Below, one piece after another: positions 11,171-18,851 of a stretch of DNA of 64,000 nt. The stretch lies in the IMG/VR virus record IMGVR_UViG_3300045391_004889, positions 1 through 64,000 of that record; one strand, 5' to 3'. The notes below the pieces were generated by a model, which saw only the letters and a list, made by a program, of their open reading frames with translations, was not told the DNA's origin and did not search any database. This stretch comes from a virus. The position numbers were made by a program, and so were the translations under genes. How positions within the stretch are numbered: position 1 is the first letter of the stretch; each line of letters opens with the position of its first letter.

Positions 11171-11320
11171 GCAGCGGGGCTGATGCGAAGGTCGGGAGCT
11201 ACTTCCTTAATCGATGGGTCGTGGGTTCAACCCCCACCCGCGTCTTCGGATGCGGTAGCTCAGCGGTAGAGCAATCGACTGTCAACTCCAGGCTGTAAGG
11301 GGTCTCAGCCCCACCGCTGC
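11171..11320 (+). ncRNA. Y RNA-like 1 (YrlA-type, circularly permuted tRNA module)
   Basis: Closing stem GCAGCGG/CCGCTGC and GGGGCTGA/TCAGCCCC; GATGCGAAG motif; T-arm GTGGG-TTCAACC-CCCAC, acceptor-like hairpin CCGCGTC-TTCG-GATGCGG, then D-arm TAGCTCAGCGGTAGAGC. Confidence 0.85.
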
Positions 11321-11390
11321 GCTGGTACGGGATGACCACGACCACAGGAACGAGAGAACGGAGCGGGCTATGTAGCCCCATCACAAAGCT

Positions 11391-11467
11391 TCACAGCTGG
11401 TGCGCTGCCGACGGATACTTCACCTGGCAAAGATAAAGTCCGTCCGCACACTAGATCTCAGCTGTGA
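11391..11467 (+). ncRNA. Y RNA-like 2 (short, no tRNA module)
   Basis: TCACAGCTG/CAGCTGTGA closing stem; GGTGCG...GACGGA-TACTTC...TCCGTC; 3' TCTCAG shared with the other units. Confidence 0.7.
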
Positions 11468-11468
11468 G

Positions 11469-11618
11469 CCGGTGTGGGTGAGCGATGCGAAGACATCGGG
11501 GTACTTCTCAACTCTGTCAAAGTTGACGATCCGGGCGCAATTCCCGGCAGGGCCGCTATGGACCTGGCAAGCGCTAGTCAGTTCCCCGCGTCGCCCAGGA
11601 CACGCTCACCTTCACCGG
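11469..11618 (+). ncRNA. Y RNA-like 3 (permuted tRNA module with intact Asp-like anticodon arm)
   Basis: CCGGTG..GGTGAGCG/CGCTCACC..CACCGG; GATGCGAAG...GGGTACTTC; TCAACT-CTGTCAA-AGTTGA; T-like arm CCGGG-CGCAATT-CCCGG. Confidence 0.75.
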
Positions 11619-11627
11619 CACCAGATT

Positions 11628-11781
11628 TGGCTGACGTGCCCGGTGCGCAGACATACGGTTACTTCGCATTCGGAGCGGGAGATCGCAGGTTCGAATCCTG
11701 CCACCCCAACGATGGGGTGTAGCCCAGCGGCCTAGGGCGCCTAACGTTGCCGTCGTCGACTTGACCTCGGGCCGTCAGTCA
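11628..11781 (+). ncRNA. Y RNA-like 4 (permuted tRNA-Pro-like module)
   Basis: TGGCTGACG/CGTCAGTCA; GGTGCGCAG...GGTTACTTC; GCAGG-TTCGAAT-CCTGC, CACCCCA-ACGA-TGGGGTG, D-arm GCCC-AGCGGCCTA-GGGC. Confidence 0.85.
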
Positions 11782-11785
11782 GTAA

Positions 11786-11930
11786 GATCCCTCGTATGTC
11801 ACCCGATGTGACGTCAACACCGTTACTTCGTGGTTCAAGTCCATGCGAATGCTGCCTTCGGGCTCGCTCTCGTCGCCCAATTGGTAGGGCTTCCGGTCTG
11901 ACACCTGGACTCGGGTGACGTACGAGGGTT
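11786..11930 (+). ncRNA. Y RNA-like 5 (permuted tRNA module)
   Basis: About 20-bp closing stem CCCTCGTATGTCACCCGA/TCGGGTGACGTACGAGGG; GATGTGACG...CGTTACTTC; T-arm CGTGG-TTCAAGT-CCATG, TTCG-capped stem, D-arm GCCC-AATTGGTA-GGGC. Confidence 0.8.
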
Positions 11931-11948
11931 ATGATGAGCTTCACAATT

Positions 11949-12022
11949 GGTGCTGTGGCGCAGTTGGTTAGCGCACCGCCCTGTCAAGGCGGAGGTCGCC
12001 GGTTCGAGTCCGGTCAGCATCG
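11949..12022 (+). tRNA. tRNA-Asp(GTC)
   Basis: Full cloverleaf GGTGCTG/CAGCATC; anticodon arm CCGCC-CTGTCAA-GGCGG; no encoded CCA. Confidence 0.9.
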
Positions 12023-12118
12023 CGACGTCACTGATGTGACGCGGAGTGCCGGTTCCTTCATCGCCTTCACCAGGCGCCTCGAACAAAACCCGGTCCGCAC
12101 GCGGTCTCAGCGGCGTCG
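12023..12118 (+). ncRNA. Y RNA-like 6 (short)
   Basis: CGACGTC.CTGA/TCAG.GGCGTCG; GATGTGACG...GGTTCCTTC; 3' GGTCTCAG as in unit 1. Confidence 0.7.
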
Positions 12119-12121
12119 AAG

Positions 12122-12194
12122 GTCCCGATGGCGCAACGGATAGCGCACTTGACTACGGATCAAGCGGTTGCAGGTTCGAATCCTGCTCGGGACG
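12122..12194 (+). tRNA. tRNA-Arg(ACG)
   Basis: GTCCCGA/TCGGGAC; CTTGA-CTACGGA-TCAAG; GTTCGAAT T-loop. Confidence 0.9.
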
Positions 12195-12212
12195 CTGGGG
12201 AGGCGTTGACAT

Positions 12213-12296
12213 GGCGCTGGCCGCTCATGACGGCGATTGTGGTGAAATCCCGCCCTGATAAGGCGGGGGAACTGGGTTCGACTCCCGGCAGCGCCC
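12213..12296 (+). ncRNA. Aberrant tRNA-Ile(GAT)-like RNA with an extra hairpin
   Basis: GGCGCTG/CAGCGCC acceptor; extra GCCG-CTCATGA-CGGC; D-like GATT/AATC; CCGCC-CTGATAA-GGCGG; T-arm CTGGG-TTCGACT-CCCGG. Confidence 0.65.
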
Positions 12297-12313
12297 TCCC
12301 TACAACTGCAGAT

Positions 12314-12467
12314 GTCCACGTAGCTCAGGTTGGGACAGAGCGGCCCGAAAACGGATGGGCGGCGTGGCGAGAAGGTTGCGGATGCACCGAATGGCTCTCG
12401 CAGGGTCTGTAGGGAAGCGCGTTTCCAAGCTCGTCTCTAGGCGCGGGTTCGAATCCCGTCGTGGACA
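12314..12467 (+). ncRNA. tRNA-framed RNA with anticodon arm replaced by an ~100-nt structured insert
   Basis: GTCCACG-TA-GCTC...GAGC at the 5' end; GCGGG-TTCGAAT-CCCGT-CGTGGAC-A at the 3' end. Confidence 0.75.
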
Positions 12468-12511
12468 CTTTCACCGACGCCAGGTTGGTGCGACAGAAGA
12501 AGGTGGGTGCG

Positions 12512-14200
12512 GTGGCGCGATTCAACACGCCCGGGCAGCCGGCTCGTCCGACGCGAGCAACCTCGCCCGTGAAGACCACGGGGGAGATGACCACGACGTT
12601 TGAGGGTGGCCCTGGCTACCTGCGAAACGCGAAGTCTGAGCTGTTCCAGCTCGCTGTGGTCAACATGGTCGGCCAGGACACGTTCTACGAGTCCGCGGGT
12701 GACCGAGACAGCCGCTACACGAGCCTGATCCGTGAGCTTGCCGTCGCTGACCCTTCCTGGACCTTCGAGCTGCTGCGGTGGCTGCGTGGTCCGGAGGGCA
12801 ACCTGCGCACGGCCAGCCTGGTGGGTGCCGCGGAGTTCGTGAAGGCTCGGCTCGACGCGCAGAAGCGTGGCGAGCTGCCCAACCCGGCTCCCGTCGGCGA
12901 CCACGCGTTCACCGTCGCGCACTGGAACCGTCGCGTCATCGACGCGGTGCTGCAGCGTGCGGACGAGCCCGGCGAGCTGATCGCGTACTGGATCCAGAAC
13001 TACGGTCGCAACCTGCCGCAGCCGATCAAGCGTGGTGTCGCCGACGCCGTCAAGCGTCTGTACACCGAGCGTGGCTACCTGCGCTACGACAGCAACTCGA
13101 AGGGCTTCCGCTTCGCGGACGTCATCGACCTGGTGCACCCGAGTGCGAGTGCCCCGTGGCAGGGCGACCTCTACCGTCACGCGTTGAACGAGCGCCACGC
13201 TCGAAACGCTGACGTGCCGGAGAGCCTGACCCTGGTGACCGCTCGCAAGACGGTCAACTCGCTGTCGCCTCAGAAGCGCCACGACCTGGCGCGATTGGCG
13301 CTGCGAGACGGCCTGGAGCACAGCATCTACGAGCGGGCCATGGCCGGTCACTGGGAGTGGCTCCAGAGCCTGCTGGGTGACACCTCGGGCGTGCGTACGC
13401 CGGTCGACAAGCGTGGCCGCTGGAAGCTGGTGCTGCCGCAGATGGGCTACATGGCCCTCCTGCGCAACCTTCGCAACCTCGGCGAGGCGGGTCTCACGTA
13501 CGTGGAGGTCCAGGAGATCGCGAAGCGCCTGGCGGACCCGGAGCAGGTGGCCAAGAGCCGCCAGTTCCCGTACCGCTTCTGGTCGGCCTACCAGGCCACC
13601 GACGGTGCCTTCGCTCAGGCTCTCGACACCGCGTTCATGCACAGCATGCGGAACATCCCTGGTCTCCCGGGACGCAGCCTCGTGCTGGTCGACACCAGCG
13701 CCTCGATGAACGGTGGGCTCTTCGCTCGCCAGTCCACGATGACGCCCCTGCAGGCCGCGGCGGTGTTCGGTGTCGCTCTGGCGACGCGGAACCCGGGCTC
13801 GGTGAAGCTCATGGGCTTCGCGAGCGGGGAGTTCGAGCACATCATGCCGGTGGGCGCGTCGGCGATGGCTGAGGTCAAGCGCTTCATGGGCCGCGTCGGT
13901 GAGGTGGGCCACGGCACCGACATCCACGGTGCGGTGTCTCGTCAGTACCGCCGTGAGTTCGACCGCGTGTTCATCATCAGTGACATGCAGACGATCGACT
14001 CGCGTCACCTGGCTCACCAGACGGTGCCGCGTCACGTGCCGATCTACGGCTTCAACCTGGGCGGCTACCGCGCCAGCATGATGCCGCTCGGCCCGGGTCG
14101 TCACGAGTTTGGCGGTCTCAGCGACGCCACCTTCAAGAACATCCCGCTGCTCGAGCGTGGCATCGACGGCGGCTGGCCGTGGGAGGTCACGGGTGAGTGA
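12512..14200 (+). CDS. rsr: Ro60/Rsr-like RNA-binding protein (TROVE + vWA)
   Basis: TFEGGPGY..AKSELF, QDTFYES, NLRTASLV, MGYMALLRNLRNL, KSRQFPYRFWSAY, and vWA LVLVDTSASM...FIISDMQ; GTG start at 12512 (MARFN) avoids overlap with the upstream RNA. Confidence 0.92.
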   Translation: MARFNTPGQPARPTRATSPVKTTGEMTTTFEGGPGYLRNAKSELFQLAVVNMVGQDTFYESAGDRDSRYTSLIRELAVADPSWTFELLRWLRGPEGNLRTASLVGAAEFVKARLDAQKRGELPNPAPVGDHAFTVAHWNRRVIDAVLQRADEPGELIAYWIQNYGRNLPQPIKRGVADAVKRLYTERGYLRYDSNSKGFRFADVIDLVHPSASAPWQGDLYRHALNERHARNADVPESLTLVTARKTVNSLSPQKRHDLARLALRDGLEHSIYERAMAGHWEWLQSLLGDTSGVRTPVDKRGRWKLVLPQMGYMALLRNLRNLGEAGLTYVEVQEIAKRLADPEQVAKSRQFPYRFWSAYQATDGAFAQALDTAFMHSMRNIPGLPGRSLVLVDTSASMNGGLFARQSTMTPLQAAAVFGVALATRNPGSVKLMGFASGEFEHIMPVGASAMAEVKRFMGRVGEVGHGTDIHGAVSRQYRREFDRVFIISDMQTIDSRHLAHQTVPRHVPIYGFNLGGYRASMMPLGPGRHEFGGLSDATFKNIPLLERGIDGGWPWEVTGE

Positions 14201-15565: not shown

Positions 15566-16114
15566 ATGAGCAAGAAGCCGCTGCTGTTCATCGACGTGGA
15601 CGGCGTTCTGAACCCTGAGAGCACCTCAGCCGGTCGTCGTCCTGACGGGTACATGACACACCGCATGCGGCCATCTGGCCCGTGGCAGGACACGCGGCAC
15701 AAGGCGCTGCGAGTGTGGCTCAACCCGAGCCACGGCTCTTACCTGATGGGTCTCCCCTTCGAGCTGGTGTGGGGCACCACCTGGGAGGACGAGGCCAACG
15801 AGTGGATCGCGCCGCACCTCGGGTTGCCCGAGCTGCCGGTGGTCCACTTCGAGAACAAGCTTGGGCGCCGGGTTCACGGCGTTCACTGGAAGACCCCCGA
15901 TCTGGTGAAGTACGCGGCCGGTCGGCCATTCGCGTGGCTGGACGACGAGATCACCGCTCGGGATGGGGAGTACGTGCGTGAGCACCACCGCGCCCCGTCT
16001 GCCCTGGTCCAGGTGTCACCCTTCGTGGGTCTCACCGATGACCACCTGCACCACCTCCACGTCTGGCACAGTCAGCTGGCCAACGTGGAGAAGCTCAACG
16101 ACATCGGCCACTAG
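15566..16114 (+). CDS. HAD-superfamily phosphatase (Swiss-army-knife RNA-repair type)
   Basis: LLFIDVDGVLNP (DxD), LVWGTTWE, WK, FAWLDD motifs. Confidence 0.85.
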   Translation: MSKKPLLFIDVDGVLNPESTSAGRRPDGYMTHRMRPSGPWQDTRHKALRVWLNPSHGSYLMGLPFELVWGTTWEDEANEWIAPHLGLPELPVVHFENKLGRRVHGVHWKTPDLVKYAAGRPFAWLDDEITARDGEYVREHHRAPSALVQVSPFVGLTDDHLHHLHVWHSQLANVEKLNDIGH

Positions 16115-17339: not shown

Positions 17340-17430
17340 TTTCCCAAACAGCGCTCAGGCTGATATACTTCTATCAGCAGCAAGCAAGCAGACAGCATGC
17401 AAGCTCAAGCTAAATGGGGTGAATCAGGAA

Positions 17431-18165
17431 GTGAAGCTCAACCAGGTCGTCGCTCTCGAGGCGGGTCTCAAGACCCGAACCGAGAAGGCGGTCACGGAGG
17501 ATTACCACCTGCTGCAGAAGGCGAACCTGTTCGCCGGCTTCAGCAAGACCTACCGACCGAAGGACGAGGACGGCGACAAGCTGCCCCCGGAGCGTCAGGT
17601 GGTCCAGCAGAACGTGGAGACGCTGCTCAAGCACTCCGCGGACGTGCTGACCAACCTGCTCGACGTGCAGTACACGAAGGACGTCGCCAACACCGCGGCG
17701 AGTGCCGACGTCGTCATCGACGGCGAGACGCTCATCGAGGACGCGCCGGTGCCCTTCCTGCTCACGCTCAAGAAGCAGCTGATCCACTGGCGCACTGTCG
17801 TCGGCAAGCTGCCTCTGACGGATCCGAGCGAGGTGTGGGACTACGACACCGCCACCGACCAGTGGCGAACGCAGCCTGTCGACACCACGCGCAGCAAGAA
17901 GGTCCTGAAGAACCACGTCAAGGCCGAGGCCACCGACCGGCACCCGGCTCAGGTCGACACGTACACCGTCGACGAGATCGTCGGCACCTGGAGCACCACG
18001 CGTCTCTCCGGCGCCGTGCACCTGGTCCGTCAGCGCGAGCTCGTGGACCGCGTCAACAAGCTCATCGACGCGGTCGACCTGGCGGTCGAGGAGGCCAACC
18101 ACCTCGACGTCGAGCAGAAGAAGGTCGTGGGCGCCGCCTTCGCCTTCCTGCTCGGCAGCGAGTAG
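17431..18165 (+). CDS. Conserved coiled-coil/beta-hairpin protein of unknown function; candidate RNA-binding partner of the downstream RNAs
   Basis: GTG start with SD AGGAA and -10 TATACT at 17364-17369; KLNQVVALE...KTYRPKDEDG..LPPE...ADVVIDG...HPAQV...SGA matches a widespread uncharacterised bacterial/phage family from recall. Confidence 0.85.
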   Translation: MKLNQVVALEAGLKTRTEKAVTEDYHLLQKANLFAGFSKTYRPKDEDGDKLPPERQVVQQNVETLLKHSADVLTNLLDVQYTKDVANTAASADVVIDGETLIEDAPVPFLLTLKKQLIHWRTVVGKLPLTDPSEVWDYDTATDQWRTQPVDTTRSKKVLKNHVKAEATDRHPAQVDTYTVDEIVGTWSTTRLSGAVHLVRQRELVDRVNKLIDAVDLAVEEANHLDVEQKKVVGAAFAFLLGSE

Positions 18166-18176
18166 CACCACAACCT

Positions 18177-18215
18177 GGTCATCACCCCACCGTTTGGTAG
18201 GGTGGGGTGATGACC
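18177..18215 (+). terminator. Perfect 15-bp hairpin after the coiled-coil gene (terminator or processing site)
   Basis: GGTCATCACCCCACC-N9-GGTGGGGTGATGACC; no U-tract. Confidence 0.55.
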
Positions 18216-18221
18216 GCCCAC

Positions 18222-18355
18222 GGACGCGGGCAGCCCGTCAGGTGCCCCCACACCATCACGGTCGTTGTTCCCCCACGGCGACTAGGTGAAGAGCAGGCGA
18301 CTCTTGGTCGAGGTCACGCCGCTCCCTGACCCTGGTGCGAGTCCAGGCGCGTCCA
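18222..18355 (+). ncRNA. tRNA-framed RNA with large internal insert
   Basis: GGACGCG/CGCGTCC-A acceptor; T-like arm CCTGG-TGCGAGT-CCAGG; internal hairpins. Confidence 0.6.
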
Positions 18356-18359
18356 CTCG

Positions 18360-18580
18360 GTACTTTGGTGCCAACACACAACTCAACAGTGTGCTCACAG
18401 ACTCCCGGTTGAGCGACCGGGTGCCCGAGAGGGCAAAGCTGAAGCTGAAACTGAAGCTCAGCGGGACACGTAAAGGTGCAGGTTCGAGCCCTGCCCTCGG
18501 CACTCATGCCGAGGTAGCCCAACTGGTAGAGGCAGCGTGCCGCGTCAAGCTCAGACTCTCGCTCCAGCTTGAAGCAGTAC
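18360..18580 (+). ncRNA. Structured RNA with permuted tRNA module flanked by phased NNNCTN hexamers
   Basis: GTACT/AGTAC closure; T-arm GCAGG-TTCGAGC-CCTGC, CCTCGGCA-CTCA-TGCCGAGG, D-arm TAGCCCAACTGGTAGAGGC; flanks AAGCTG AAGCTG AAACTG AAGCTC and AAGCTC AGACTC TCGCTC CAGCTT. Confidence 0.8.
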
Positions 18581-18729
18581 GAGGCGATCACAATCTACCT
18601 GGCCTGATCAACCGTCGAGAGATGCGGGTTCGAATCCCGTCCGGACCACTACGAGGTTCGGTGGCCGTAACGGCAACGGCGCATGACGTAAATCTAAAGC
18701 AGGCCAAACCGTGTGTGGTCGATCGCGTC
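18581..18729 (+). ncRNA. Second permuted-tRNA RNA of the coiled-coil locus
   Basis: GCGATC/GATCGC and TGGCCTG/CAGGCCA stems; GCGGG-TTCGAAT-CCCGT, CCGGACC-ACTACGA-GGTTCGG, D-arm GCCGT-AACGGCA-ACGGC; AATCTA on both sides. Confidence 0.8.
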
Positions 18730-18733
18730 ATCA

Positions 18734-18806
18734 CCATTGATAGCGCAACTGGTAGCGCGTCAGCCTTGAAAGCTGAAGGATGCGGGTTCGAGTCCCGCTC
18801 AATCTA
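18734..18806 (+). tRNA. Atypical or pseudo tRNA, anticodon TGA, defective acceptor end
   Basis: Normal D, anticodon (TCAGC-CTTGAAA-GCTGA) and T arms, but only a 5-bp acceptor ATTGA/TCAAT and no long variable arm. Confidence 0.6.
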
Positions 18807-18851
18807 TAACACAGGACGGCGCCTGCAAGGTTAGGCGGGTGCCGTCCGCCA

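What the first reader, a model, noticed from the sequence alone, without database searches (positions are those of the whole stretch)
17364..18729. Candidate new RNP: coiled-coil protein gene followed by permuted-tRNA RNAs with phased NNNCUN hexamers
Seen in sequence: an uncharacterised 244-aa coiled-coil/beta-hairpin gene (17431-18165) is followed by two RNAs (18360-18580, 18581-18729). Each has a circularly permuted tRNA module (T-arm, loop-closed acceptor stem, D-arm), as in YrlA. Neither has the GAUGYGA...UACUUC signature of the six Ro-linked RNAs. Instead, the first module sits on an internal loop whose two strands both show 6-nt periodicity with invariant CT: AAGCTG AAGCTG AAACTG AAGCTC and AAGCTC AGACTC TCGCTC CAGCTT. 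The second RNA has AATCTA on both sides. Inference: an oligomeric (ring, cage or filament) protein binds one hexamer per subunit and presents tRNA-mimic modules. That would be a Ro-independent analogue of the Ro60-Y RNA particle, possibly acting in RNA repair or as a decoy against host tRNA-targeting defences. I know of no description of this pairing.
Basis: partly seen in the sequence, partly recalled or inferred. Interest (0 to 1): 0.92.

Follow-up and report, generated by a model that had tools for sequence, protein, structure and literature searches.

The report
Twin tRNA-mimic RNA with DUF7873 partner
A phage gene of unknown function (DUF7873) is followed by a folded RNA of about 330 bases that carries two back-to-front, anticodon-less tRNA look-alikes and runs of a six-base repeat; the gene and this RNA are kept together in many unrelated phages and hundreds of bacterial species, so they probably form an undescribed protein-RNA particle akin to, but independent of, the Ro60/Y-RNA system.

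Summary
17431-18165 encodes a full-length DUF7873 protein. 18404-18733 holds two circularly permuted tRNA modules (18478-18533, 18624-18680) and phased A-R-N-Y-U-N hexamers (18436-18459, 18547-18577).

The pairing is conserved. A covariance model of the first module with its hexamer arms hits just downstream of the gene in 65 of 80 IMG/VR loci and 76 of 80 bacterial loci. In 121 Streptomyces genomes the RNA was found in 56, all among the 64 that carry the gene, and in none of the 57 without it. Helices show heavy compensatory change (39 of 48 pairs).

In Herpetosiphon the gene and RNA are unlinked, and the RNA has its own promoter-like site. So it is one trans-acting RNA, not a 3' UTR element. 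Ro60 is missing from 9 of 10 phage genomes that carry the pair.

The protein is predicted to be a symmetric homodimer, which fits two tRNA-like heads better than one subunit per hexamer. Binding and function remain inferred.

The RNA reaches no Rfam 15 family threshold, and no paper searched names DUF7873. This scan has already noted the same pair on other DNA (37 notes, at least 31 genomes).

The parts
17341..17369 (+). Promoter-like site TTCCCA-17 nt-TATACT (TG before the -10), upstream of the DUF7873 gene
   Evidence: 1 site found against a mean of 0.1 in shuffles. This is a consensus match only.
17401..17412 (+). Two phased hexamers, AAGCTC AAGCTA, in the 5' leader. A third, AAGCTC, forms codons 2-3 at 17434-17439.
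   Evidence: Two or more consecutive hexamers occur upstream in 25 of 171 loci, against 7 of 342 control windows inside the CDS. The feature is occasional, not universal.
17431..18165 (+). DUF7873 protein gene (244 aa; a gene caller's alternative GTG start lies at 17419)
   Evidence: Pfam PF25283, E 3.8e-85. 1633 homologues. AF2 pLDDT 91.8. Predicted symmetric homodimer.
18177..18215 (+). 15-bp G+C-rich hairpin just after the stop codon, with no U-tract
   Evidence: Read from the sequence. The terminator scan did not call it.
18404..18434 (+). Two 5' hairpins. P1 is CCCGG-TTGAGCGA-CCGGG (18404-18421), with a loop GTTGAGCR that is conserved in actinophage versions. P2 is GCCC-GAGA-GGGC (18423-18434).
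   Evidence: MFE fold. The same elements are seen in Phendrix, Racecar, NiceHouse and several IMG/VR loci.
18436..18459 (+). Hexamer tract A: four phased A-R-N-Y-U-N units
   Evidence: Unique in the window; 0 of 100 shuffles match. A1 and U5 are kept in 58 of 59 aligned sequences.
18461..18543 (+). Stem in the place of an anticodon stem (18461-18470 pairs with 18536-18543, GA bulge), carrying module 1
   Evidence: MFE fold. This helix was not resolved in the family consensus because the alignment has gaps there.
18478..18533 (+). Permuted tRNA module 1: T-arm, 7-bp acceptor stem closed by the 6-nt loop ACTCAT, then D-arm
   Evidence: Compensatory changes occur in T-arm and acceptor pairs. Core of the CM R1 hit at 18422-18594 (135.4 bits, E 5.5e-30).
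18547..18577 (+). Hexamer tract B: AAGCTC AGACTC, the near-invariant TCGCTC, one extra C, then AGCTTG AAGCAG
   Evidence: Nearly invariant columns are A126, T130, A132, T136, T138, G140, C141, A145, T149 and A151 of alignment A4.
18586..18720 (+). Domain 2. An outer stem (18586-18591 with 18715-18720) and an inner stem (18600-18606 with 18700-18706) enclose module 2. The internal loops hold AATCTA (18592-18597; family consensus AATCGAC), AATCTA (18691-18696) and AAACCGTG (family consensus TTAAACG).
   Evidence: Helices 5 and 6 of the family consensus; all 13 of their pairs show changes on both sides. MFE fold.
18624..18680 (+). Permuted tRNA module 2: T-arm, 7-bp acceptor stem closed by the loop ACTACGA, short D-arm
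   Evidence: R1 module-only hit at 18624-18697 (35.1 bits). Helices 7 and 8 are 99-100% paired, with compensatory change.
18734..18806 (+). tRNA-Ser(UGA), first of six tRNA genes. It sets the latest possible 3' end of the RNA at 18733.
   Evidence: ARAGORN and Rfam.

Best explanation
This is a two-part cassette: a DUF7873 protein and one structured, trans-acting RNA of about 330 nt.

The RNA has two domains. Each ends in a tRNA look-alike (T-arm, 7-bp acceptor stem closed by a loop, D-arm) with no anticodon arm. In place of that arm is a stem whose internal loops carry conserved single-stranded tracts: phased A-R-N-Y-U-N hexamers and UCGCUC in domain 1, and AAUCGAC, one hexamer and UUAAACG in domain 2.

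Most likely mechanism (inferred): a DUF7873 homodimer binds this RNA. Either each protomer holds one tRNA-like domain, or the dimer holds the conserved tracts. The resulting particle then presents or occupies two tRNA-shaped surfaces that tRNA-recognising factors can engage, such as RNase P, T-loop or D-loop modifying enzymes, exonucleases or tRNA-directed nucleases. On this view it is a Ro60-independent counterpart of the Ro60-YrlA particle. In phages it sits in the tRNA and RNA-repair region and would protect or tune the tRNA pool during infection. In bacteria it is an accessory stress or conflict module.

Shown here: the structure, the conservation, the strict co-occurrence, the action in trans, and the independence from Ro60. 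Inferred: physical binding, stoichiometry and cellular role.
For: 1. Strict linkage.
- A permuted tRNA module lies within 900 nt downstream, on the same strand, in 73 of 80 IMG/VR loci and 71 of 80 bacterial loci. The opposite strands together gave 5 and 17 hits.
- CM R1 gives full-length hits in 65 of 80 IMG/VR loci and 76 of 80 bacterial loci.
- In 121 Streptomyces species genomes the gene is in 64 and the RNA (E <= 1e-10) in 56. All 56 are among the 64, and none of the 57 gene-less genomes has the RNA. The listed hits lie within about 110 nt of the gene, on the same strand.
- Each of five whole genomes has exactly one full-length hit.

2. Wide host range. The pair occurs in phages of Gordonia, Arthrobacter, Rhodococcus, Pseudanabaena, Klebsiella and Ralstonia, and in simpler one-module form downstream of the gene in Rhizobium and Vibrio phages.

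3. The RNA is structured. 92.3% of cells are paired, against 68.1% after shuffling and about 42% with slid partners. 39 of 48 pairs show changes on both sides. The covariation score is 0.673 against 0.204, reached by 0 of 500 shuffles.

4. It acts in trans. In three Herpetosiphon genomes the single gene and the single RNA are unlinked, yet both are kept (137 bits). The RNA there has its own promoter-like site and a closing hairpin.

5. No other partner. No protein-coding neighbour is conserved across the bacterial loci, and no fused forms were found.

6. Dimer prediction. The model supports binding; it does not show it. Score 0.62, best of 3 controls 0.00. That mark was reached by 20 of 30 proteins solved as pairs of one chain and by 1 of 23 solved as single chains. 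The runs agree in at least 96% of contacts, and the partner's pLDDT is at least 86. The interface is symmetric. Two modules is the commonest count (47 of 80 and 51 of 80 loci).

7. A free conserved surface. The highly conserved EATD(K/R)HPAQ segment (residues 166-174) lies between the two long beta-strands, next to the only basic block (141-160), and outside the predicted dimer interface.

8. Precedent. YrlA tRNA-like domains are recognised by TruB and DusA. M. smegmatis YrlA, which has a 7-bp acceptor stem, is also cleaved by RNase P and receives CCA (PMC4201824, read).

9. Phage context. Ro60 (12461-14200), a HAD_SAK_2 RNA-repair domain (15566-16114) and tRNA genes flank the cassette. tRNA genes are about 19 times denser around viral copies than around bacterial ones.
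Against: - No experiment or RNA-seq was available, so binding is inferred from linkage alone.
- The protein is neutral to acidic (median pI 6.0) and has only one short basic stretch.
- Its fold matches no known RNA-binding fold.
- A closed dimer does not explain why 4-5 hexamers recur in phase.
- 8 of 64 Streptomyces genomes with the gene gave no strong RNA hit.
- Vibrio and Rhizobium phage versions have only one module and gave weak or no R1 hits.
- The cellular role rests on analogy with Ro60-YrlA only.
Confidence: 0.6

Rival explanations
1. Decoy or sponge. The two anticodon-less tRNA look-alikes soak up a host factor that recognises the tRNA elbow or acceptor arm, such as a tRNA-directed defence nuclease, a toxin or a modifying enzyme. 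DUF7873 only stabilises or loads the RNA. This is a functional sub-variant of the best explanation rather than a different object.
For: - Viral copies sit in tRNA clusters.
- Distribution in Streptomyces is patchy, 64 of 121, as for accessory conflict genes.
- The closed acceptor ends and the missing anticodon make the modules non-functional as tRNAs.
Against: - Most known tRNA-directed defence nucleases cut the anticodon loop (established knowledge), which these modules lack.
- The cassette is also common in bacterial chromosomes, among ordinary housekeeping neighbours and not in defence islands.
- There is no PADLOC match.
Confidence: 0.2
2. One reading: a higher-order DUF7873 oligomer (ring, cage or filament) binds one hexamer per subunit and displays the tRNA modules.
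For: - The hexamer phase is strongly conserved: A1 and U5 in 58 of 59 sequences, with 4-5 units per tract.
- The two tracts do not covary as a duplex, so they are probably read as single strands.
Against: - The predicted assembly is a closed two-fold dimer that uses the same residues on both copies. That is not a head-to-tail interface. Assemblies larger than a dimer were not tested.
- The protein is not basic.
- The Cas7 lead failed. Foldseek gave E 5.7e-3 with TM 0.14, and no Cas7 chain appeared among the 50 rows listed in the VIA second look (lowest listed Z 2.9).
Confidence: 0.12
3. A cis-acting element of the DUF7873 mRNA: a tRNA-like 3' UTR that serves as a processing or stabilising signal, with no separate RNP.
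For: - The RNA nearly always lies within about 110 nt of the stop codon, on the same strand.
- In the window there is no clear terminator between gene and RNA.
Against: - In three Herpetosiphon genomes the gene and RNA are unlinked and both are conserved. The RNA there has its own promoter-like site.
- In L077 the RNA is on the opposite strand, and in L098 and L104 it lies 2.4 kb away.
- About 330 nt of conserved tracts and two domains is far more than a processing signal would need.
Confidence: 0.05
4. Extra Ro60-bound Y RNAs (YrlA paralogues), whose position next to DUF7873 is incidental.
For: - The phage encodes Ro60 at 12461-14200.
- There is a weak YrlA match at 18447-18561 (23.6 bits).
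- The tRNA-like core resembles that of the Ro-linked RNAs at 11221 and 11685.
Against: - The YrlA score is far below the gathering score of 69.
- There is no GNCGAAN0-1G motif and no GATGYGA/TACTTC signature in 18360-18733.
- TROVE was not found in 9 of 10 phage genomes with the pair, nor in 24 of 64 Streptomyces genomes with it.
- The RNA tracks DUF7873 completely.
Confidence: 0.03
5. A permuted (two-piece) tmRNA, as ARAGORN calls it (18263-18777), or a protein-coding ORF (18286-18834).
For: - ARAGORN gives a tmRNA* call.
- The gene order, T-arm then acceptor then D-side, is that of permuted ssrA genes.
- The hexamers read as (K/R)(L/F) codons, and in the window both tracts are in frame with a 182-aa ORF.
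Against: - The only tmRNA hit in Rfam covers 15 nt at 12.4 bits.
- The acceptor stems are closed. CCA follows the discriminator in only 32 of 102 (module 1) and 21 of 102 (module 2) cases, and not in the window.
- Pair 3:70 is C-G, not G-U.
- The proposed tag overlaps the T-arm of module 2.
- Low-GC relatives carry in-frame stops and annotators called no gene there.
- The helices change by compensatory substitutions.
Confidence: 0.02

Closest known systems
YrlA-class bacterial and phage Y RNAs with Ro60/Rsr (Rfam RF02553; Chen et al. 2014, PMC4201824), especially M. smegmatis YrlA with its 7-bp acceptor stem
   Same: Both are non-coding RNAs whose tip mimics the T-arm, acceptor stem and D-arm of tRNA in permuted order, on a stem that replaces the anticodon arm. 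Both are encoded beside a dedicated protein gene, occur in bacteria and in large phages, and are patchy accessory elements. This phage carries both systems.
   Different: - The partner is an unrelated 244-aa protein (DUF7873), not a TROVE/vWA ring.
- It has two tRNA-like domains per RNA instead of one.
- It has phased A-R-N-Y-U-N hexamers, UCGCUC, AAUCGAC and UUAAACG tracts instead of the Ro60-binding helix.
- It scores 23.6 bits against a gathering score of 69.
- It occurs without Ro60 in most phages checked.
tmRNA, including two-piece (circularly permuted) ssrA
   Same: Both have a tRNA-like domain with a T-arm and acceptor stem, in the same permuted gene order. ARAGORN therefore calls it tmRNA*.
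   Different: It has closed acceptor stems, no conserved CCA, no G3:U70, a full D-arm, no tag reading frame ending in a stop, no pseudoknot ring and no Rfam match. Its partner is not SmpB.
Large ornate phage RNAs found next to tRNA genes (GOLLD, ROOL; Rfam families; location recalled from the literature, not tested here)
   Same: Both are long, highly structured non-coding RNAs of unknown function that phages carry in or beside tRNA clusters.
   Different: No Rfam match to either family. This RNA is much smaller, is built from tRNA-like modules and is tied to one protein gene. It is also common in bacterial chromosomes.
Cas7 (Cascade backbone) bound to crRNA
   Same: Conceptual only: a protein that reads RNA with a 6-nt period. 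Cas7 chains were Foldseek's top, non-significant hits.
   Different: E 5.7e-3, TM 0.14, rmsd 21.6 A, and no Cas7 chain among the 50 rows listed in the second look. There is no CRISPR context. The similarity is not supported.

Membership tests
Pfam DUF7873 (PF25283), for the protein | Full-length match above the curated cut-off of 27 bits | tested here: met
   285.9 bits, E 3.8e-85, residues 2-241 of the protein on positions 3-242 of the 244-position profile. Confirmed on the genome.
YrlA / bacterial Y RNA (RF02553) | Score at or above Rfam's gathering score (69 bits) | tested here: not met
   18447-18561 scores 23.6 bits, E 0.3. There is no match at the gathering threshold.
YrlA / bacterial Y RNA (RF02553) | tRNA-like domain made of a T-arm, an acceptor-like stem and a D-arm in permuted order | tested here: met
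   Modules at 18478-18533 and 18624-18680, with compensatory changes across the family.
YrlA / bacterial Y RNA (RF02553) | Ro60-binding helix or conserved motif (GNCGAAN0-1G in PMC4201824; GATGYGA...TACTTC in this phage's own Ro-linked RNAs) | tested here: not met
   Neither pattern occurs in 18360-18733. The phage's own signature occurs only at 11182-11824.
YrlA / bacterial Y RNA (RF02553) | Encoded next to, and co-occurring with, a Ro60/TROVE gene | tested here: not met
   Ro60 lies 4.2 kb upstream and has its own RNAs. TROVE was not found in 9 of 10 phage genomes with the pair, nor in 24 of 64 Streptomyces genomes with it.
YrlA / bacterial Y RNA (RF02553) | Physically bound by Ro60 | not testable with these tools
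   Needs immunoprecipitation.
tmRNA (RF00023 and the permuted forms) | Match to a tmRNA covariance model | tested here: not met
   Only 15 nt (18625-18639) at 12.4 bits, against a gathering score of 47.
tmRNA (RF00023 and the permuted forms) | Chargeable acceptor end: free or encoded CCA and a G3:U70 pair | tested here: not met
   The loops ACTCAT and ACTACGA close the stems, and pair 3:70 is C-G in module 1. CCA is present in only 32 of 102 (module 1) and 21 of 102 (module 2) relatives.
tmRNA (RF00023 and the permuted forms) | Conserved tag reading frame ending in a stop codon | tested here: not met
   ARAGORN's tag lies on the T-arm of module 2. No conserved frame or stop is seen in the alignments.
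Canonical tRNA (RF00005) | Cloverleaf in standard order with an anticodon arm | tested here: not met
   Neither ARAGORN nor RF00005 calls a tRNA in 18404-18733. The order is permuted and the anticodon arm is replaced.
Cas7 / RAMP backbone proteins | Shared fold with a solved Cas7 | tested here: inconclusive
   Foldseek E 5.7e-3, probability 0.25, TM 0.14. No Cas7 chain was listed by VIA-align; the best row there is TolC 7ng8_A at Z 6.3, rmsd 12.6 A, 178 aligned. The wide search gave only helical bundles, the best being 8gji_A at Z 8.6, rmsd 5.0 A, 132 aligned.

The most novel reading that the evidence does not exclude
DUF7873 and its twin tRNA-mimic RNA form a previously unrecognised, widespread ribonucleoprotein. 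A protein dimer holds two anticodon-less tRNA-shaped heads and uses them to capture, recruit or block a tRNA-recognising machine such as RNase P, a 3' exonuclease, a repair ligase or a tRNA-directed nuclease. That would make it a second, Ro60-independent family of tRNA-mimicking particles, used by bacteria and taken up by phages in the contest over the tRNA pool. The phased hexamers would be a new kind of periodic protein-RNA or RNA-RNA recognition code.
Probability: 0.35. Interest if true: 0.9.

Novelty: new variant of a known kind. Interest (0 to 1): 0.8.

Why it matters
tRNA mimicry by a dedicated non-coding RNA with its own protein partner is so far known in bacteria mainly from Ro60-YrlA, whose tRNA-like domain still has no assigned role. 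Here the same idea appears with a different protein and a doubled mimic.

The pair is widespread. It is absent from all 14 model control genomes, which may explain why it was overlooked.

It is small and self-contained, and it is present in cultured, non-pathogenic systems (SEA-PHAGES actinophages, Streptomyces, Herpetosiphon). The question of what tRNA-shaped decoys or adaptors do becomes directly testable. The work would also give a named RNA family to an unannotated 300-500 nt gap in many phage genomes, and a first functional handle on a DUF.

Tried and rejected
- Near-identical phage DNA: none in the phage collection. A distant DNA search found only the neighbouring tRNA.
- PHROGs, NCBIfam and PADLOC: no family for the protein.
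- PDB by sequence profile: nothing below E 0.2.
- Foldseek against PDB and BFVD: nothing at E <= 0.001.
- Cas7 lead: rejected after the VIA second look.
- VIA wide search: only generic helical bundles, Z <= 8.6.
- ESM Atlas: best score 0.80, unnamed clusters.
- Fused or longer forms of the protein: none found; this is weak evidence.
- Conserved protein neighbours in 80 bacterial loci: none. The clusters shared by most loci are the gene itself, antisense frames, and spurious frames over the RNA. The remaining neighbours are ordinary Streptomyces genes.
- Pairing of hexamer tract A with tract B: no covariation, and the inner positions pair in only 30-70% of sequences. Self-pairing of a tract gave only weak signals.
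- Hexamers over the gene's ribosome-binding site as a general feature: seen in only 25 of 171 loci.
- Conserved CCA in the acceptor loops: rejected.
- Literature: 'DUF7873' gave 0 papers. Searches on permuted tRNA with phage, YrlA with phage, and tRNA-like with Y RNA or Streptomyces found nothing on this pair. The 2023 catalogue of viral candidate RNAs (PMC10690425) and the AcrIIIA1 protein-RNA paper (PMC11662646) do not describe it; I could not check the catalogue's 8,495 IMG/VR motifs one by one.
So there is no expression or end-mapping evidence.
Full report
**What is at the coordinates.** The window comes from a complete 107,985-bp virus record with direct terminal repeats. The frame 17431-18165 (+) gives a 244-aa protein that matches Pfam DUF7873 end to end (E 3.8e-85). 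It matches nothing in PHROGs, NCBIfam or PADLOC. A promoter-like site lies at 17341-17369. After the stop codon come a strong hairpin (18177-18215), about 190 nt of unassigned sequence, and then the conserved RNA (18404-18733). The RNA runs up to tRNA-Ser at 18734, the first of six tRNA genes.

- Module 1 is T-arm 18478-18494, acceptor strands 18495-18501 and 18508-18514 joined by the loop ACTCAT, and D-arm 18517-18533.
- Module 2 (18624-18680) has the same order.
- A simple structural detector finds only four such modules in 64 kb. The other two (11221, 11685) lie beside the phage's Ro60 gene.
- Four phased hexamers at 18436-18459 are the only (ARNYTN)x4 match in the window, and none occurs in 100 shuffles.
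- The 3' tract AAGCTC AGACTC TCGCTC C AGCTTG AAGCAG lies at 18547-18577.
- AATCTA flanks module 2 at 18592-18597 and 18691-18696.
- The GATGYGA/TACTTC signature of the Ro-linked RNAs is absent here.

**The pairing is conserved, which is the main result.** A tblastn search finds the protein in 75 phage records from hosts in Actinomycetota, Cyanobacteria and Alpha-, Beta- and Gammaproteobacteria. In all twelve loci I opened, the gene is followed by several hundred bases with no annotated gene, or with only tiny ORFs. In nearly all twelve, one or two permuted tRNA modules lie within those bases. The four actinophage versions align by eye over about 330 nt.
- In 80 IMG/VR loci, 73 have at least one module within 900 nt downstream on the same strand, and 47 have exactly two about 150 nt apart. 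The opposite strands together give 5 hits.
- The protein is also chromosomal.
- In 80 bacterial loci, 71 have the module downstream, against 27 hits in the other 0.95 Mb counted on both strands.

**A covariance model sharpens this.** Model R1 has 175 positions and was built from 59 sequences covering module 1 and both hexamer arms.
- It gives a full-length hit in the window at 18422-18594 (135 bits, E 5.5e-30).
- It gives full-length hits in 65 of 80 IMG/VR loci, and in 76 of 80 bacterial loci at E <= 1e-10. All bacterial hits are on the gene's strand.
- It hits the Ro-linked RNAs at 11221 and 11685 only over the tRNA-like core (about 30 bits). They share the mimic but not the arms.
- In 121 Streptomyces species genomes the gene is present in 64 and the RNA in 56. 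All 56 are among the 64, none of the 57 gene-less genomes has the RNA, and the listed hits lie within about 110 nt of the gene.
- Each of five whole genomes holds exactly one full-length copy.

**It is an RNA, and probably one RNA.** On a 21-sequence alignment of the whole element:
- 92.3% of cells pair, against 68.1% after shuffling and about 42% when partners are slid.
- 39 of 48 pairs show changes on both sides.
- The covariation score is 0.673 against 0.204, reached by 0 of 500 shuffles.

Both T-arms, both 7-bp acceptor stems and the two long-range helices that enclose module 2 are supported.

High-GC genomes show a spurious open frame over the region. In the window this is 18286-18834, and both hexamer tracts are in frame with it. 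But low-GC relatives carry stops and have no called gene, and the helices change by compensation.

In three Herpetosiphon genomes the single gene and the single RNA lie far apart, at 3.008 Mb and 1.172 Mb in H. aurantiacus. There the RNA sits between unrelated genes. It has a promoter-like site (TTGCCC-17-TACAAT) just before the P2 hairpin and a closing hairpin after the UUUAAACG tract, and this unit spans both modules. This argues for one trans-acting RNA of about 330-365 nt and against a purely cis-acting 3' UTR element.

**The hexamers.** Across 59 sequences the unit is A (58/59), R, N, Y, U (58/59), N. There are four units 5' of module 1. On the 3' side there are two units, the near-invariant UCGCUC, one extra base, and two more units. 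The two tracts have the same sense. Their inner positions pair in only 30-70% of sequences and show no convincing covariation. Self-pairing signals are weak. They therefore look like conserved single-stranded recognition tracts. What reads them is unknown.

Read as codons, the unit is (K/R)(L/F), and the free positions are the wobble positions. I record this as unexplained; the evidence above is against translation.

Hexamers also occur in the gene's leader in this phage (17401-17412) and in its closest relative. Across all loci they occur in only 25 of 171, so autoregulation through them is at most a local feature.

**The protein.** AF2 gives a confident model (pLDDT 91.8) with four long helices and several beta-hairpins, one of them long (150-193). 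No solved or predicted viral structure matches significantly. Foldseek's top hits were Cas7 chains, which was tempting given the 6-nt period. However, the values were E 5.7e-3 and TM 0.14, and none appeared among the 50 rows listed in the second look.

For two copies, the model supports binding; it does not show it. The score was 0.62 and the best of 3 controls 0.00. That mark was reached by 20 of 30 proteins solved as pairs of one chain and by 1 of 23 solved as single chains. The runs agree in at least 96% of contacts, and the partner's pLDDT is at least 86. The interface is symmetric.

The family is highly conserved: about 50% identity between this phage and bacteria of several phyla, with 40 invariant columns. 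It is near-neutral (median pI 6.0). One highly conserved segment, EATD(K/R)HPAQ, lies between the two long beta-strands next to the only basic block, and is not part of the predicted interface.

A two-fold dimer and an RNA that usually has exactly two tRNA-like heads suggest one head per protomer. This is inference.

**Relation to Ro60.** This phage has Ro60 (TROVE + vWA, 12461-14200) with its own YrlA-like RNAs, and a HAD_SAK_2 RNA-repair domain at 15566-16114. But TROVE was not found in 9 of 10 complete phage genomes carrying the pair. In Streptomyces the counts are: both 40, DUF7873 only 24, TROVE only 25, neither 32. That is a weak association at most, whereas the RNA tracks DUF7873 completely. 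The RNA fails three of the four testable YrlA criteria; see Membership tests.

**How it most likely works.** Shown here: a self-contained gene-RNA pair, a trans-acting RNA with two tRNA-shaped, anticodon-less heads and closed acceptor ends, conserved single-stranded tracts, and no other conserved partner gene.

By analogy with YrlA, the heads are probably seen as tRNA by cellular enzymes. YrlA's tRNA-like domain is handled by TruB and DusA, and the M. smegmatis form with a 7-bp acceptor stem is also handled by RNase P and the CCA enzyme (PMC4201824). My best reading (0.6 for the RNP as such) is that a DUF7873 dimer binds the RNA and uses the two heads to recruit or occupy a tRNA-recognising factor. 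Whether it acts as an adaptor, like Ro60-Y RNA-PNPase, or as a decoy cannot be decided here.

In viruses the cassette sits among tRNA genes: 0.54 per kb, against 0.028 per kb around bacterial copies. That fits a role centred on the tRNA pool.

**Novelty.** The RNA reaches no Rfam 15 family threshold. No paper in the library contains 'DUF7873', and no paper found describes the pair. Earlier notes of this scan describe the same pair in at least 31 other genomes. My tests agree with them. They add the Herpetosiphon unlinked case, the Streptomyces tables comparing the gene with the RNA and with TROVE, the dimer prediction, the rejection of the Cas7 lead, and the lack of pairing between the hexamer tracts.

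**Limits.** The covariance model covers only the first domain. Oligomers larger than a dimer were not tested.

Noticed in passing
window 11182-14200: Ro60 locus. A TROVE + vWA protein (12461-14200) is preceded by two YrlA-like permuted tRNA modules (11221-11272, 11685-11738; Rfam YrlA 33.7 bits each). Three GATGYGA...TACTTC pairs lie at 11182/11200, 11484/11502 and 11805/11824. tRNA-Asp and tRNA-Arg lie at 11949 and 12122.
   Followed up: partly
window 15566-16114: A 182-aa protein with a HAD_SAK_2 domain (HAD domain of 'Swiss Army Knife' RNA-repair proteins, E 1.2e-8). It lies between the Ro60 locus and the DUF7873 cassette, so this part of the phage looks like an RNA-repair and tRNA island.
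   Followed up: no
window 18263-18777: ARAGORN calls a permuted tmRNA with the tag AGSNPVRTTTRFGGRNGNGA*. This is a false call caused by the permuted tRNA modules: the 'tag' lies on the T-arm of module 2.
   Followed up: yes
window 18436-18577 and ORF 18286-18834: Read as codons, the hexamer A-R-N-Y-U-N is (Lys/Arg/Asn/Ser)(Leu/Phe), and the two free positions are the wobble positions. Both tracts are in frame with a spurious 182-aa ORF. Low-GC relatives carry in-frame stops and no start codon. Unexplained.
   Followed up: partly
L174 1320-1719 (minus strand); G004, G126, G127: In three Herpetosiphon genomes the RNA is a stand-alone gene with its own promoter-like site, between a CLC channel gene and a glycosyltransferase gene. 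It lies far from the single DUF7873 gene.
   Followed up: yes
L001 4178-4215, L002 4120-4155, L003 4220-4257, and near the end of the stretch read from L005: A hairpin with the conserved loop CGGATATG (TCGGATATT in the cyanophage) lies 60-100 nt after the RNA in Phendrix, Racecar, NiceHouse, PA-SR01 and IMG/VR locus L028. It is absent in the window, where a tRNA follows directly.
   Followed up: no
L112 6159-6345 and 6735-6910; L077 4576-4764 (minus strand); L098 and L104, about 9170: Variants of the arrangement. A Ktedonobacterales MAG has two tandem copies of domain 1. One viral contig has the RNA on the opposite strand, 1.3 kb away. Two Nocardia genomes have it 2.4 kb downstream of the gene.
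   Followed up: no
G113:C1:6017144-6018140: In one Streptomyces genome the DUF7873 gene is split into two frames (residues 1-162 and 160-242), while the RNA next to it is intact (152 bits).
   Followed up: no
L004 3530-3612 (Gordonia phage Keelan): An odd tRNA-like element (acceptor GCAACGG...CCGTTGC with a T-arm) lies between the DUF7873 gene and tRNA-Thr. In Keelan the DUF7873-linked RNA follows the tRNA instead of the gene.
   Followed up: no
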